Of a stretch of 64,000 nt of DNA, positions 9,001-51,200 are shown piece after piece. This DNA comes from Carcharhinus amblyrhynchos. Its lineage: Eukaryota. The stretch lies in the NCBI GenBank assembly GCA_965287045.1, contig OZ336876.1, forward strand, positions 3,224,001 to 3,288,000. Direction: 5' to 3'. Position numbers: made by a program. Each line of letters opens with the position of its first letter. The first letter of the stretch is position 1.

Positions 9001-11667
9001 CCACACTCCAAATATGTACAAATTAGATGCATTCGCCATGCTAAGTTGCCATTATGTATAGCTTAGATGGATTAGTCATGCTAAATATAAGAGGTTACGG
9101 GATAGGATGAGAAAGTCAGAGAATCGGTGCAGACACGATGGGTCAAAGGGCTTCTTTCTGCACCGGATGGATTTCATATCCCTGTAGGATACCTACAGTG
9201 TTGATTTGTGTGTTTAACATAAGCTTCGTTTCTGTTTAATCTTCACATACACTTTTTTTATCTCGATGTTTTTTTTTTTCACACGTTTAAGATTGACCAT
9301 GGGAAATTTAGCTTCTGGAAGATCATCAGATGAAAAGACCGACACCACACGCATTCGGTTGTATAGCGCTGGGATGCTGAACTTTGCAGTCAAACGTAGA
9401 AAATGTGTCTTTTAGTATAAAGGCCAGTTGTACCATACGTTCCCAAGAGGTTAGGATCACAAAAAAAAAGATTGAACGGACTTCATTCTGGCAATGTTTT
9501 GATTGTGTGTCGGCAAATCGGTGATAGTACTGTATTTGCATTCATATCATGATGAATTAGTACATGCAATCGGTGTTGCTGATGTGGCACCTATATAGTC
9601 AGCACAACGGATTACTGAGGGTATTAAGGCTCATTTGGGATAGAGTGTGCCCTGTTTGAATGCACTTCTCCACTGGCGGCGGACAGAAATGTCGGCTTTT
9701 TAAAGAACCCGCCGAACCTGAAGTTTTCCTGAATTCGAAATCCTGACGGAAAACTTGATATGCCGGATCCTAACTGCATATATTTACATTGATATAATTT
9801 TCGAAAAGAGATGAAGACCAATGATGACGCTTCCAGTGTTGTAAATATTCAAGAAAATAGATTACGATTAAACATAGTAAAATAGAGATGAGAACAAGCA
9901 ATAATAATTCTACAGATTGAAATTTAGTTAGCACAGTTTGCAAATGTCTCTATTTTTATGAACACTGAGCTAAACATTCAGAAAGAGAATCTGACTGGGT
10001 TTCAACGGTATGAGCACATTGCAATAATAAATTGACTCCACACTTGACTTTAATATCTCCATTGAAGAGTCCATCAGCCTCCTTAACCTACTATTTTTTC
10101 GTAACTCCCTTAATTTTCATTTCACCGCAACTTATTGACAGATGAAGTATCGCAAATGGTTTGTTCGTTACATGTTGAAGTTCAGAAATATTCTGCAATG
10201 CGTTAAGCATTTGCTGGTAAGCAAACAAAAGGAACTTTAACGTCATATGATAACAAGTGAAGTTAAAAGGATGTTTCTTTAATTTTGCATTTTTTTAATC
10301 CTCGTTGTAATGACACTTTGTTTATAACTTTTCATTCCAGATCGTCCACTAAAACCCCATCTCTCTCTAGAAAGAAACCCTGGTATTTTCATGGCGGGAG
10401 ATACAATAAAAATGACTTGCACAGCTTTGAGCTTTTATGCAGGGAGTAAGTTTTACCTGAAGAAAGTTGGTGAAGCGAATCCTTTTGCATTTGGAACGAC
10501 TCCAGATGGAGTTCAAAGTATTACCTTTTCAGTCCAGGACGCAGATTTTAACAACAGTGGAAACTACTCGTGCATCTATGAAACGGAAAAATTTGGAAGT
10601 GCCGTGAACTCAAGCTATAGTGACCCTGTGCAAGTAAATGTAACAGGTGAGCAAAAACGAAACTGCAGCCCCATTGGTTCGAGGAGAACGAAAACAAAAC
10701 ATTGTTCGATAAATATTTCCTTGCTCACTTGATTCAAGTGAGTTAGTTAGAATCTTGGCCAGTTGGCCAGTGTATGGTGCCAGAAATAATTCACAATCGG
10801 TGATGCCCTCTGTCAGATAAAGGTTAGTGGCATATATTCACCAGAAACAAAAAAGATAGAAGATTCTGACACACGCACGTACGTTTGTTTTAGATAAGCG
10901 TCCTCCTTCTGCATGCATATTGACCTTATACTCATTCAAGTTCAAAAGCATCGACTCAGTACTAAGACTAATTTATACCTCAACATGTTAGACATTTAAT
11001 TCGATCTGGATAAACGGCATACCCCGAATTCCCAAGAGATTAAATATGCTGCTAAGGGCAGTTCAGATTTATGTGTGGATTGACCATACCTAATTACATT
11101 TGAGAACAGGTAACGAGAGGCCCACAGTGTTGTTGGAAGTGTTATTGCACGTAAGATTATGCATGTTTTATTGTTTATTCATGATTGGTAGAAGTTTGAT
11201 CCAGTTGAGTGGCTGGTTAGGCTATTTCCGAGGGCAGTAATAAGTGCACCTCATCGTTCTGATTCTGGAGTCACATACCGGCAGTACCTGGCAGTGATGG
11301 TCTTAATCACTGCCTAAAGGGAGAGCTTAAAATGGAGAAAGCACGTTAAAAAAAATAACTAGGTGTGCCTAATTCCCCATAGCAAACATTGAAATTATTA
11401 TTCGCTGCAGTATTTTCAATGAAAAGTGGAAAGAAAAACTGGAATGTGTTCCCCAGCTTAAAAAGTCAATGTAAAAAAGGAAAACAGTTTTCAACACACA
11501 CTATGAAGCAGAGGTCACTGTCCCTGTGTGTTTTTTTAAGTGTGTGTGTGTCTGTGTGTGCGGGTATGGCTGTGTGTGTATGTTTGCGTGTGTGTGATGG
11601 CCACGATGCTTGAGCATCAATATTTTTCGGGACATCCGGGTGTGAGTGGTTTCACAGAATCTGCTTG

Positions 11668-11747
<80 letters not shown>

Positions 11748-48200: not shown

Positions 48201-51200
48201 TTGAAAAAGCTGTCAGTCTGTTTCAGATATTACTAACAGCCAAATCCATTATCTGAATCTATGGCCTCATAAGTTAAATTATTTGTTGATCACTATTAAT
48301 TAATTGCATGTGCCGATAGGGACTGTTGGTGGAATACGAGTTAATAATAAAATAAAGTCCATCGCAGAAAGTTACACAATGGGGAACAGATTGACTGGAG
48401 ATTGGGACCTGTGCTTCTCAATTCCTGATTGAAATACAGCTCTATCTTCCGAAAACTTGTCTTCATTCTATTGGTTTTGATTGTATTTATAGATCAACCG
48501 CTTCAGCTCATTTTGTCTTTGGAAAGGATATCTGGTATCTTCATTGCAAGAGAAATAATAAGAATGACCTGCAGAGCATTGAACATTTACGCAGGAAGTA
48601 GCTTTCTTCTGATGAAAGCCGGTGAAGTTCATCCAATTGCTACACAATATGCTCCAAATGGAACAGCGAGCGTTACTTTCACTCTCCTGGATGTGGATGC
48701 CAGGGAAGATGGCGATTACACGTGTCGCTACCAAACACGCAAATCAGGGCATATTTCCAATCCAACAAGCAGCAACTCCGTGCATGTATACGTAACAGGT
48801 AGGTGAAAACGCAGACCATACTTTACTCCCTGATTTGTTGCCAACCCCATAACTGCACTTAATTTACTTACTTTTTTGTTGCTGCACCATTAAAATTGTG
48901 ACCATGAAATTACATGAAGGCCCACCAAGCGAGACGTCAACAATTAACCGTTTAATTTTGATGATTACTTTTACAGGCAATCGGTATTAGATTCATGGCC
49001 ATCCTTACTGCCGCTGGCTTTCAATCCCTAATTGATTTATATCCTACCATCAATGTTGCTGTTTTCGAATCAATGCCGTAGAATTTAGCAATCTGTTGAA
49101 ATCAGTGCCATCCCACCGAGTCCTAACACTGGAATATAAAAGTAACTAGAGGAGTTACATCCTCAAATTTACTTTTCTGTATCTCTAACGCAGGAACTCG
49201 CACCGTTTACAACAAAATAGTAGCCCAGAATACCCAACAAATCAACTCTTTTATGTAGAACACTTCGCTGAACATTTTGAGTTGCATCTCATTCACTGCA
49301 GCGTGGTTTCTCCAAATGTCTGTTTCTTCTCAGATGGACTCAATAACACATTATGACAGAAATGGACAGACTCCATCCTGACTCAATAAAACGGTTTCTC
49401 CACAAAGCCCATTGCAGTCGTCAGAAATGCGTGGCTCTAAATCTATAGTCCTTGTGTTACAGAGTTTCTAAACAATCCAAAATGAATCGAATTGCAAGAA
49501 TCATTTTGGGGTTGGGGTTGTGGTTGGGGTTGGGGGGAGGGGGTCATTAGACGGAGCACAGCTCATTTGCAGATGGAAATGTACCCCAATATTGGAGCTT
49601 TGTTCAATGTTGTTGAAGCCATACTTAAAGAAAGCACATTGTCTAATGAGGAAACTAAATCATCAGAATCAGGAAATTAAATTTATCCTGTTCATTCCTT
49701 GCAAAAAACGTGACATCAGAGAGATATAGCACTCCATTAAGACATCAGCTCATGTCTGTCACTCAACCATATCTTATGTTATATATCTGAAAAGTTATAA
49801 AACTCACTGATCCATAAAATATTAACAGCATTAAATATCTGTCATTTTCCATGTATTTTCTGACGCCATACCAGTAAAGAAAAAACAATTCTCAATTCAC
49901 GTTTTAAGTTGATGACCTTTCAGCTGAACACCACATGCCATGCGATTCTTCCTTTATTAAACCCTGGGTTGATTTTGTGTTAGGAATTCAGCCCTTCAAT
50001 GCATGATGGTCAATAATTTACCTTGTCCGTTGTCATGTCTTTTAGATGAGCTTCCAATACGGTTGACAAATGGCACACATTTTTGTTCCGGAAGAGTGGA
50101 AACTTATTATAACAATTCCTGGAGAGCAGTCTGCGATGATCATTGGGATGTGCTTGATGCAACTGTTGTATGTAGGCAATTAGCATGTGGAACGGCTCGA
50201 TCAGCTCCTGGCGGTAATCACTTCGGAACAGCGCCAGGTCCTTTCTTGTTTGATGACGTTCAATGCAATGGGACAGAATCTACTCTTTTGGAGTGTGAAA
50301 TGAGCCCCTTGGAACAAAACAACTGCAGATCTGGCCAGACTGCATCTGTTATTTGCGCAGGTAAAGTTGGGGATTTGATTGACGATGTAATACTTATATC
50401 ATAACGTATCAGAAGTATCAAGTGCAAATGATCCTACTGATGGAGACGCCATTGTGACACTGAGTTTCCCCTTACAGTAAAAAAAAGTGTTGAATGTCAA
50501 ATGGAACAATATAGCCTTTCAAAACATCTGCCATTTCGCCACAAATTGATTAGATAGAACATGTGGTTCTACGCATCATTTTATGGATATCCCTTTGCTT
50601 TTCCAATACCTCCTTAAAACGTTAACGTTCATGTTCTAAGGAGAAAGAGACAATTCCTATTTAAAAAAATGCTTCATCATCTGCAAGTATTCTGTTTACC
50701 TTCTTCTTCTGCGTGTAATGGCATTTGTTGCATCAATCACAAGTAAACGTGTATTATTTGCTAGAGGTCTCTAGAATTGCTGACATATACTCATGTGGCT
50801 TTTCACAATTTGTTCAGCAAAGCACAACAAATTCGTGTCGAACGTATTGTACAGTCCCTGTAACTTTATATAAGAGCTCGCAAATGGGAAAAAGGGGATC
50901 TGGAAGCATGGATTATTTTATTTTTTGTGTGGAAATTTCGTCAGGAAAGAGGTAATATTATGATCGGGACCGGATTTGGAAGACCAAACTGCTGAGGCGA
51001 ATATAATAATCCGCATTTTGTCTAACGGGTTTTCTTTTTTTTTACAACAGAACTTCGCTAGCAAGCTAATAATTCAGGAGATTTCAGCCGATTTATTGAC
51101 GCATATCCGGTAACCTGAACGGATGCAACTGAAATGAGTTTACATTTAATATTGCTGATGCTCGCGTCCTTTGAGATCCACTGAGATATTGCAAATATCC

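What the first reader, a model, noticed from the sequence alone, without database searches (positions are those of the whole stretch)
10341..48798. Ig domains are the Trp-less C2 type typical of the leukocyte receptor complex
Seen: the seven domains follow D(R/Q)P..(P/L).L ... C ... F(Y/L)L ... G.Y.C.Y ... V...VTG, with the usual C-strand Trp replaced by the F-x-L motif. Known: LILR/KIR/A1BG/IGSF1 domains start LPKP.L, typically have F.L.K.G there and end SDPLELVVTG. Inference: an LRC-type Ig exon was shuffled into an SRCR array, which bears on where LRC-like domains arose in early jawed vertebrates.
[Added by the scan's program, not by the reader: the finding's places include an assembly gap (unread letters, written N; its length is only estimated) at 42123 to 42415, 46473 to 46641. 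Whether the letters on both sides are continuous or in frame is not known: test that first.]
Basis: partly seen in the sequence, partly recalled or inferred. Interest (0 to 1): 0.7.

Follow-up and report, generated by a model that had tools for sequence, protein, structure and literature searches.

The report
LILR/KIR-type Ig domains in SRCR array
A long vertebrate-type gene repeats the block [quoted passage not shown] seven times, and those immunoglobulin domains most resemble the ones in LILR, KIR and related immune receptors, a combination I found described nowhere.

Summary
They have no Trp, 23 invariant columns and the stated motif. Both N gaps are intronic, and five complete units lie in gap-free sequence.

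The LRC-type reading is supported as closest similarity:
- In a PDB profile search, 41 of the best 60 hits are LILR, PIR-B, KIR, FcαRI, NKp46, OSCAR or CHIR.
- All 7 single domains have such a protein as best hit.
- One of two fold searches puts them first.
- ESM Atlas neighbours are named KIR3DX1, IGSF1-like, A1BG and LILRA6.

Pfam gives only generic Ig families. Ig2 also touches FcγRII and CD276.

Not tested: a phylogeny, synteny with the LRC, and the organism. The "early jawed vertebrate" bearing therefore remains open.

The SRCR domains are group B, nearest CD163, PIT54, CD5L and DMBT1. The likely function, inferred only, is a large multivalent scavenger or pattern-recognition glycoprotein. 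The only Ig+SRCR chimera my paper searches returned is eutherian FCRLS.

The parts
10341..10646 (+). Ig1 exon, LRC-type Trp-less C2 Ig domain, phase 1-1
   Evidence: best PDB hit PIR-B, E 1.3e-10
15663..15962 (+). Ig2 exon (2 residues shorter, third Cys)
   Evidence: best PDB hit PIR-B, E 8.2e-11, then CD276 and FcγRII
20792..21097 (+). Ig3 exon
   Evidence: best PDB hit PIR-B, E 2.2e-07
27431..27736 (+). Ig4 exon
   Evidence: best PDB hit macaque FcαRI, E 2.8e-06
34203..34508 (+). Ig5 exon
   Evidence: best PDB hit LILRA6, E 3.3e-11; AF2 pLDDT 86
43354..43659 (+). Ig6 exon
   Evidence: best PDB hit PIR-B, E 1.4e-10
48493..48798 (+). Ig7 exon (most divergent)
   Evidence: best PDB hit OSCAR, E 3.6e-04
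2238..2552 (+). SRCR-A1 exon (group B SRCR, 8 Cys)
4450..4764 (+). SRCR-B1 exon (second canonical Cys missing, extra Cys)
11847..12161 (+). SRCR-A2 exon
   Evidence: Pfam SRCR E 1.3e-28
14098..14412 (+). SRCR-B2 exon
   Evidence: Pfam SRCR E 9.6e-33
17293..17607 (+). SRCR-A3 exon
18951..19265 (+). SRCR-B3 exon
22379..22693 (+). SRCR-A4 exon
26273..26587 (+). SRCR-B4 exon
29189..29503 (+). SRCR-A5 exon
32330..32644 (+). SRCR-B5 exon
36725..37039 (+). SRCR-A6 exon
41722..42036 (+). SRCR-B6 exon
42123..42415 (.). assembly gap inside the SRCR-B6 to Ig6 intron
44273..44581 (+). SRCR-A7 exon (309 nt)
46473..46641 (.). assembly gap inside the SRCR-A7 to SRCR-B7 intron
47301..47615 (+). SRCR-B7 exon
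50046..50360 (+). SRCR-A8 exon, last intact domain exon found
59844..60136 (+). decayed SRCR exon (frameshift)
60666..60973 (+). decayed SRCR exon (frameshift, cysteines lost)

Best explanation
The window holds most of one long + strand gene, or a gene segment, for a mosaic extracellular protein. It has at least 15 group-B SRCR domains of two alternating subtypes and 7 Trp-less C2 Ig domains of the kind found in LILR, PIR, KIR, FcαRI, OSCAR and CHIR receptors. Each domain is one symmetric phase-1 exon.

Shown: an ancestral three-exon block [SRCR-A | SRCR-B | Ig] was duplicated in tandem at least seven times, long enough ago that the introns no longer align, and the copies stay under purifying selection.

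Inferred: the Ig exon and the SRCR exons came together by exon shuffling, direction unknown.

Inferred function: the product works like DMBT1/SALSA or CD163. That is, a large, glycosylated, multivalent scavenger or pattern-recognition molecule whose SRCR domains bind repetitive anionic ligands through a Ca2+-binding acidic cluster. The rigid Ig domains would serve as spacers or extra binding modules after every SRCR pair, where DMBT1 has unstructured linkers. Whether it is secreted or membrane-anchored is not known.
For: Gene structure: 22 of 22 exons have AG..GT, a length divisible by 3, no stop and a G as last base, so every junction codon starts with G.

Ig type:
- Profile against PDB: 41 of the best 60 hits are LRC-family, top PIR-B at 2.3e-19. 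The LRC alignments run from the A strand to the terminal VTG, whereas most non-LRC hits cover only columns about 50-99, around the F strand.
- Single domains: best hit is LRC-family in 7 of 7. LRC-family rows make up 170 of 223 rows at E<=0.05.
- AF2 model 1 (pLDDT 79): Foldseek ranks 1-7 are OSCAR, CHIR-AB1, LILRA5 and LILRB4.
- AF2 model 2 (pLDDT 86): the six LRC rows have the lowest rmsd (2.4-3.2 Å) and the highest identity (18-25%).
- Atlas neighbours are named KIR3DX1, IGSF1-like, A1BG and LILRA6.

SRCR type: Pfam SRCR E 1e-28 and 1e-32; 8 Cys; one exon each. Nearest solved relatives are CD163, PIT54, CD5L, CD6 and DMBT1. Atlas names are WC1.1-like and DMBT1-like.

Block duplication: A and B are clean clades at 100/99 support. 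A and B distances co-vary along the array (Mantel r 0.78, p 0.0004).

Constraint: dN/dS is 0.36 for Ig, 0.20 for A and 0.16 for B.

Cation site: positions that by spacing correspond to SALSA D1019, D1020 and E1086 are D-D-E in 4 of 15 SRCR exons and D/E/N/Q at all three in 9 of 15. The residue roles come from passages of PMC7043408.
Against: - There is no transcript, no signal-peptide exon and no transmembrane or tail exon, so one gene and its topology are not shown.
- Pfam gives only the generic Ig_2, Ig_3 and ig families, plus Ig_C19orf38 (HIDE1) just above its cut-off for 2 of 7 domains.
- Single-domain E-values are modest. The best single-domain i-Evalue in the profile search is 4.8e-06.
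- Ig2 has only 1 LRC row among 26, with CD276 at 1e-08 and 17 FcγRII rows at about 0.01.
- In the second Foldseek run four nanobodies outrank the first LRC hit, and only 6 of 44 listed rows are LRC. In the first run only 1 match reaches E<=0.001.
- Ig distances do not co-vary with SRCR distances (r 0.19 and 0.10, p 0.30 and 0.37).
- 6 of 15 SRCR exons lack an acidic or amide residue at one of the three site-2 positions.
- dS is near or beyond saturation, so the dN/dS values are rough.
Confidence: 0.7

Rival explanations
1. The Ig domains are not specifically LRC-type. On this reading they are ordinary C2 domains from the wider FcR/FcRL/LRC stock, or from another C2 or I-set lineage, that lost the C-strand Trp independently. 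They resemble LILR and KIR only because those dominate the solved Trp-less C2 structures.
For: Pfam matches only generic Ig families. Ig2 hits FcγRII (17 rows, E about 0.01) and CD276. Ig4 reaches FcγRII and FcεRIα at E 0.02-0.05. 19 of the best 60 profile hits are non-LRC. The second Foldseek ranking is dominated by V domains. No phylogeny was possible.
Against: The best hit is LRC-family in 7 of 7 domains, ahead of any FcR row by 3 to 9 orders of magnitude. No FcγR, FcεR or FcRL chain is in the best 60 of the profile search. LRC alignments include the N-terminal P-x-x-P-x-L strand and the C-terminal S-D-x-V-x-V-x-V-T-G. The [YF]-x-L-x-K-x-G columns match in all 13 printed PIR-B, LILRB1 and LILRA6 domain alignments. 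Atlas names are LRC-type.
Confidence: 0.15
2. The array is not one gene. It would instead be several shorter genes, or a partly dead array whose exons are no longer all spliced into one message.
For: No leader, transmembrane or 3' exon was found in 50363-59843. Two decayed SRCR exons lie at 59844-60973. There is no expression evidence. SRCR-B1 has an abnormal cysteine pattern.
Against: All 22 exons are intact, share the same phase and strand and have canonical splice sites. dN/dS is below 1 for all three series. The A-B-Ig order is never broken. Nothing resembling a leader or an anchor exon lies between units, though short exons of that kind cannot be ruled out by eye.
Confidence: 0.12
3. The periodic array is an assembly artefact: repeat expansion or wrong scaffolding across the two gaps.
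For: Two gaps of estimated length lie in units 6 and 7.
Against: The copies are only 45-75% identical in protein, and their introns share nothing but dispersed repeats, so they are not duplicated reads. Five full units lie in gap-free sequence. Order and strand continue correctly across both gaps.
Confidence: 0.03

Closest known systems
Ig domains of LRC-family receptors (LILR/PIR-B, KIR, FcαRI, NKp46, OSCAR, GPVI, chicken CHIR-AB1)
   Same: About 100-residue C2 domain with no C-strand Trp. It has [FY]-x-L-x-K-x-G in strand C, G-x-Y-x-C-x-Y in strand F and an S-D-x-V...V-T-G end, and it is a phase-1 exon. These are the best sequence and fold matches.
   Different: Those proteins are Ig-only receptors with a transmembrane region and ITIM or adaptor signalling. 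Here the domains are single inserts between pairs of SRCR domains, and no anchor or tail was found. Identity to solved members is only 18-26%. Location in an LRC was not tested.
A1BG and IGSF1 (LRC-type Ig domains outside classical receptors)
   Same: ESM Atlas lists clusters named Alpha-1-B glycoprotein and IGSF1-like among the nearest (scores 0.93). From recall, A1BG is a secreted plasma glycoprotein, which shows that this domain type can serve in soluble proteins.
   Different: From recall, those are Ig-only arrays with no SRCR. No alignment or E-value was obtained for them here.
Group B SRCR arrays: DMBT1/SALSA, CD163, WC1, CD5L, PIT54
   Same: 8-Cys SRCR domains, one exon each, in long tandem arrays. 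These are the nearest solved relatives. The acidic cation-binding cluster is kept in many copies.
   Different: From recall, DMBT1 separates its SRCR domains by unstructured SIDs and ends in CUB and ZP domains, and CD163 and WC1 have short linkers and an anchor. None of these has Ig domains. Here an Ig domain follows every second SRCR.
FCRLS (Fc receptor-like scavenger)
   Same: It is the only described vertebrate chimera of Ig-like domains with a type B SRCR domain that my searches returned (abstract of PMC7940838; passage in PMC4016189).
   Different: FCRLS has FcRL-type Ig domains. According to that abstract it arose in a eutherian ancestor. Here the Ig type is LRC-like and the two domain kinds alternate seven times, so this looks like an independent invention.
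HIDE1 (C19orf38) Ig domain, Pfam PF17737
   Same: It matches above the curated cut-off for Ig4 and Ig5 (25.4 and 25.3 bits against 23.2), and at E<0.002 for 5 of 7 domains.
   Different: At least one generic Ig family scores higher in every domain. Ig2 gives no match at E<=1 and Ig6 only E 0.052. The relation of HIDE1 to the LRC was not examined.

Membership tests
LRC-type Ig domain (LILR/KIR/A1BG/IGSF1 kind) | No conserved C-strand Trp; an aromatic-x-Leu-x-Lys/Arg-x-Gly stretch in its place | tested here: met
   0 Trp in 7 of 7 domains; F38 and L40 are invariant. These columns align with [YF]-x-L in all 13 PIR-B, LILRB1 and LILRA6 domain alignments printed.
LRC-type Ig domain (LILR/KIR/A1BG/IGSF1 kind) | N-terminal Pro-x-x-Pro-x-Leu A strand and C-terminal Ser-Asp-x-Leu/Val ... 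Val-Thr-Gly end | tested here: met
   D-R/Q-P-x-x-P/L-x-L and S94...V97...V101-T102-G103 are present in 7 of 7. PIR-B D1 and D5 and LILRB1 D1 align through to the final T-G. That this pair of motifs defines the family is recalled, not taken from a curated model.
LRC-type Ig domain (LILR/KIR/A1BG/IGSF1 kind) | Closer in sequence to LRC members than to FcR/FcRL, I-set, V-set or C1 domains | tested here: met
   41 of the best 60 profile hits are LRC-family. The best hit is LRC-family in 7 of 7 domains. FcγR appears only for Ig2 and Ig4, at E 0.01-0.05. Caveat: only solved structures were searched.
LRC-type Ig domain (LILR/KIR/A1BG/IGSF1 kind) | Fold nearest to LRC domains | tested here: inconclusive
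   Model 1: ranks 1-7 are LRC, but only 1 hit reaches E<=0.001. Model 2: nanobodies rank first by E-value, while the LRC rows have the best rmsd and identity.
LRC-type Ig domain (LILR/KIR/A1BG/IGSF1 kind) | Groups with LILR, KIR, A1BG, IGSF1, CHIR or LITR in a phylogeny | not testable with these tools
   No reference sequences could be obtained.
Leukocyte receptor complex (the locus) | Gene lies in the genomic region syntenic with the LRC | not testable with these tools
   The window contains only this array and repeats. No eukaryotic genome collection was on hand.
Leukocyte receptor complex receptors | Ig-only ectodomain with a transmembrane region and an ITIM tail or a charged residue for adaptor pairing | tested here: not met
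   The Ig exons are each flanked by SRCR exons. No anchor or tail exon was recognised in 50363-59843. So this is not a LILR/KIR-type receptor gene, whatever the origin of the domain.
SRCR superfamily, group B | SRCR domain of about 100 residues with 8 cysteines, encoded by a single exon | tested here: met
   Pfam SRCR E 1e-28 and 1e-32 for the 2 exons scanned out of 15. 8 Cys in 15 of 15, with B1 in an altered pattern. One 309-315 nt exon each. The group definition is as stated in PMC10855680 (passages) and from recall.
SRCR superfamily, group B | Acidic dual cation-binding cluster used for ligand binding (SALSA D1019, D1020, E1086; D1058, D1059, N1081) | tested here: inconclusive
   By spacing from the second Cys, site 2 is D-D-E in 4 of 15 exons and D/E/N/Q at all three positions in 9 of 15. 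The mapping rests on residue numbers in PMC7043408, not on an alignment with SALSA.
FCRLS | FcRL-type Ig domains joined to a type B SRCR domain | tested here: not met
   The Ig domains match LRC members, not FcR/FcRL. The architecture is alternating, not Ig followed by one SRCR.

The most novel reading that the evidence does not exclude
That runs against the one statement I found in print: that no clear LRC homologues with only C2 domains occur in sharks or lamprey (PMC4016189, passages). Their early home would be a modular exon in a giant SRCR scavenger protein. The Ig-only LILR/KIR-type receptors could then have arisen later by capture and multiplication of such an exon.
Probability: 0.2. 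Interest if true: 0.75.

Novelty: new variant of a known kind. Interest (0 to 1): 0.5.

Why it matters
Both domain types are well known; their regular alternation is not. Five paper searches on SRCR together with LRC, Ig or shark terms, plus one on LRC with shark terms only, returned no protein that mixes LRC-type Ig with SRCR. The only Ig+SRCR chimera returned was eutherian FCRLS. In the library searched, LRC-type domains are dated to bony fishes (PMC4016189) or even filed as mammalian (Table 1 of PMC13262535, passages).

A non-receptor, SRCR-embedded home for this domain would widen its known range and give a concrete candidate for how the receptor family acquired its building block. This depends on the species, which I could not establish. 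It may also already exist as unremarked automatic gene predictions, which I could not check.

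Tried and rejected
- An eighth Ig exon: the ORF 53743-54138 has a look-alike of the C and F strands, but it scores E 0.86 by tblastn and 3.9 with the Ig HMM, within the noise. Rejected.
- Unit-level intron homology: a self-BLAST found only dispersed repeats shared between introns, so no recent segmental duplication.
- Leader, transmembrane or tail exons: ORF listing and a hydropathy scan of 50363-59843 gave nothing convincing. 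The region 1-2237 was only looked at in the ORF list.
- Pfam on six other long ORFs, including the repeat ORFs: no family.
- Rfam and tRNA scans as clues to the organism: nothing.
- Literature on HIDE1: the search returned noise.
- Nurse shark plasma proteome and fish immunity review: no mention of SRCR or LRC proteins. Shark MHC paper: no LRC or scavenger mention.
- The GRVEVxxxxxW 'bacteria-binding' motif as a functional clue: dropped, because PMC7043408 reports it buried in the fold.
- ESM Atlas with an SRCR exon to look for Ig+SRCR clusters: all five family sets shown for the 30 nearest named clusters are SRCR-only. This says little, because only clusters of 50 or more members are searched.
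- The gap-flank frame check was miscoded for the left flanks and is not used.

Full report
**Layout of the window**

The window has 40.7% G+C, CpG observed/expected 0.655 and two N runs, at 42123-42415 and 46473-46641. A stop-to-stop ORF list under the standard code shows a long series of + strand frames that read as SRCR or Ig domains.

Splice-site inspection gives 22 exons (the first exon was corrected):
- 8 SRCR-A exons
- 7 SRCR-B exons
- 7 Ig exons

Their order is [A, B, Ig] x7, then A8. All 22 have AG before and GT after, a length divisible by 3 (SRCR 315 nt, A7 309 nt; Ig 306 nt, Ig2 300 nt), no stop in the phase-1 frame and a G as last base. Every exon is therefore a symmetric phase 1-1 module. 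Every junction codon begins with G, so it cannot be a stop. I checked this exon by exon. I did not build or search a joined (spliced) sequence.

**The gaps, tested first**

Both gaps are intronic. The first lies between SRCR-B6 (ends 42036) and Ig6 (starts 43354), in an intron of 1317 nt including 293 N. Five of the other six B-to-Ig introns measure 843-1558 nt and the first is 5576 nt. The second lies between SRCR-A7 (ends 44581) and SRCR-B7 (starts 47301), in an intron of 2719 nt including 169 N. The other A-to-B introns measure 1343-4682 nt.

- No Ig- or SRCR-like piece abuts a gap.
- Frame continuity across the gaps does not matter for the domains.
- The A-B-Ig order and the strand carry on across both gaps.
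- Ig1-Ig5 with 11 SRCR exons lie in the gap-free stretch before 42123, so the finding does not depend on the scaffolding.

**Check of the observation**

None contains Trp, whereas each SRCR exon has 2-4. Each has the two canonical cysteines 51 residues apart, and Ig2 has a third.

A six-frame scan with an HMM of the seven finds exactly these seven, at E 1e-50 to 1e-53. After them comes only noise, from E 1.1 upwards. Mean pairwise dN/dS is 0.36 (range 0.24-0.54) at dS about 1. These are old copies under purifying selection, not decaying ones. dS is close to saturation, so the ratio is rough.

**What kind of Ig domain**

*Pfam.* It gives only the generic families Ig_2, Ig_3 and ig. Ig_C19orf38 (HIDE1) passes its cut-off for Ig4 and Ig5 only.

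*Profile against solved structures.* The profile returns PIR-B first (2.3e-19 over several domains; best single domain 29.7 bits, i-Evalue 4.8e-06). Of the best 60 distinct chains, 41 belong to the LRC family: LILRB1, LILRB2, LILRB3, LILRA6, FcαRI, NKp46, KIR3DL1, KIR2D, CHIR-AB1, OSCAR and a Fab carrying LILRB1 D3D4. The other 19 are VEGFR1/2, CD276, contactin-2, LRIG1, the IgLON proteins OPCML, NEGR1 and neurotrimin, otk, SCN4B, titin and DSCAM. No FcγR, FcεR or FcRL chain is among the 60. Most of the non-LRC matches cover only columns about 50-99, around the F strand. The LRC matches run from the A strand to the final V-T-G. In all 13 PIR-B, LILRB1 and LILRA6 domain alignments printed, the window's F38-x-L40-x-K-x-G lines up with [YF]-x-L.

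*Single domains, one search each.*

| Domain | Best hit | LRC rows at E<=0.05 |
|---|---|---|
| Ig1 | PIR-B | 43 of 50 |
| Ig2 | PIR-B | 1 of 26 |
| Ig3 | PIR-B | 30 of 37 |
| Ig4 | macaque FcαRI | 35 of 42 |
| Ig5 | LILRA6 | 46 of 48 |
| Ig6 | PIR-B | 9 of 13 |
| Ig7 | OSCAR | 6 of 7 |

. Ig2 is the exception below its top hit: CD276 at 1e-08 and 17 FcγRII chains near E 0.01.

*Fold.* Two AF2 models were made from the seven-sequence alignment, with pLDDT 79 and 86. Both show the strand order A-B-C-C'-E-F-G, which fits a C2 topology.
- First model: OSCAR, CHIR-AB1, LILRA5 and LILRB4 take ranks 1-7, but only one match reaches E<=0.001.
- Second model: four nanobodies rank ahead of LILRB4, and only 6 of 44 listed rows are LRC. 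Those six have the lowest rmsd (2.4-3.2 Å against 3.6-9.1 Å) and the highest identity (18-25% against 8-16%).

The fold evidence is supportive, not decisive.

*ESM Atlas.* The nearest clusters to Ig6 are generic Ig clusters, followed by clusters named KIR3DX1, IGSF1-like, Alpha-1-B glycoprotein and LILRA6.

Taken together, the domains are closest to LRC-type domains by every route open to me. This is similarity, not a tree.

**The SRCR partners and the history of the array**

The SRCR exons match Pfam SRCR at 1e-28 and 1e-32; 2 of the 15 were scanned. They have 8 cysteines and one exon each, which makes them group B. Their nearest solved relatives are CD163, PIT54, CD5L, CD6 and DMBT1.

A and B are two clean clades with 100/99 support. 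Mean identity is 55% within A, 63% within B and 49% between them. The alternation therefore comes from repeated duplication of a block that already held A, B and, by position, Ig. A and B distances co-vary along the array (Mantel r 0.78, p 0.0004). Ig distances do not (r 0.19 and 0.10), which I cannot explain beyond saturation or different constraints. Introns share only dispersed repeats, so the duplications are old.

Two decayed SRCR exons lie downstream, at 59844-60136 and 60666-60973. No leader, anchor or tail exon was recognised.

**How it probably works (inferred)**

By analogy with DMBT1/SALSA and CD163, this would be a long, glycosylated, multivalent binder. The Ig domains carry 1-4 N-x-S/T sites each, with an invariant Asn at column 90. 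SALSA SRCR domains bind their ligands through a dual cation site formed by D1019, D1020, E1086 and by D1020, D1058, D1059, N1081, and mutating D1019 or D1020 abolishes binding (PMC7043408, passages read).

Counting residues from the second cysteine, the corresponding site-2 positions here are D-D-E in 4 of 15 SRCR exons and D/E/N/Q at all three positions in 9 of 15. Many copies, but not all, could bind in that way. The Ig domain after each SRCR pair would be a rigid spacer or a further binding module. None of this was tested.

**Comparison with what is known**

The domain type matches LRC-family Ig domains. The gene is not a LILR/KIR-type receptor, because its ectodomain is not Ig-only and it shows no anchor or tail.

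The only Ig+SRCR chimera returned by my searches is FCRLS. It has FcRL-type Ig domains plus a type B SRCR and is said to have arisen in a eutherian ancestor (PMC7940838, abstract; PMC4016189, passage). The present architecture looks like an independent and much more regular invention.

[quoted passage not shown] PMC13262535 (passages) files the KIR/LILR cluster as mammalian.

I found no paper describing LRC-type Ig in an SRCR protein. That library lacks most subscription journals.

**What stayed unchecked**

- The organism. No tool here names it, and I did not take the window for human. From recall only, the long repeat ORF at 34611-35261 resembles the tail of CR1-type LINEs common in cartilaginous fishes. 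It has no Pfam match.
- Homologues in other species and a domain phylogeny.
- Synteny with the LRC.
- Expression.

**Verdict**

I rate it a new variant of known kinds, of moderate interest. Its interest would rise if the source proves to be a cartilaginous fish and a phylogeny holds.

Noticed in passing
window 59844-60136 and 60666-60973 (+): Two decayed SRCR exons lie about 9.5 kb beyond the last intact exon. Both are frameshifted, and in the second several cysteines are replaced. They may mark the dying end of the array or the remains of a neighbouring copy.
   Followed up: partly
window 34515-35223 and 37680-38390 (inverted); 23807-24307: An inverted pair of interspersed-repeat copies, 87.6% identical, flanks SRCR-A6. 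A third, older copy is 67-68% identical. The 216-aa ORF at 34611-35261 (-) has no Pfam match. From recall only, it resembles the 3' tail of a CR1-type LINE.
   Followed up: partly
window 5071-6887 vs 30295-30476, 32809-33267, 44692-46347: Further dispersed repeat copies (64-77% identical, both orientations) are the only similarity between introns of different units.
   Followed up: no
window 4450-4764 (SRCR-B1): The second canonical cysteine is missing (the V-C-D-D stretch reads L-G-D-N) and an extra cysteine sits near the end. The count is still 8 but the pattern is altered. This is the most divergent B copy.
   Followed up: no
window 15663-15962 (Ig2): Ig2 is two residues shorter in the B-C region and has a third cysteine. 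It is the only Ig copy whose weaker PDB hits are FcγRII and CD276 rather than LRC members.
   Followed up: partly
whole array: SRCR-A and SRCR-B distances co-vary along the array (Mantel r 0.78, p 0.0004), but Ig distances do not follow either (r 0.19 and 0.10). The Ig exons may evolve under different constraints or have been exchanged between units.
   Followed up: no
window 53743-54138 (+): This ORF has a short look-alike of the Ig C strand (V-E-F-Y-L-T-K-K-G) and F strand. It is not significant (E 0.86 by tblastn, 3.9 by HMM) and has no Pfam match.
   Followed up: yes
window 11669-11746; 11525-11593; 39185-39221; 54305-54359: There are TG/AC microsatellites, including a perfect (TG)39 in the Ig1 to SRCR-A2 intron. 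They create long spurious His-Thr and Cys-Val ORFs.
   Followed up: no
whole window: CpG observed/expected is 0.655 at 40.7% G+C, which from recall is high for a heavily methylated vertebrate genome. There is no Rfam family and no tRNA gene in the 64 kb.
   Followed up: no
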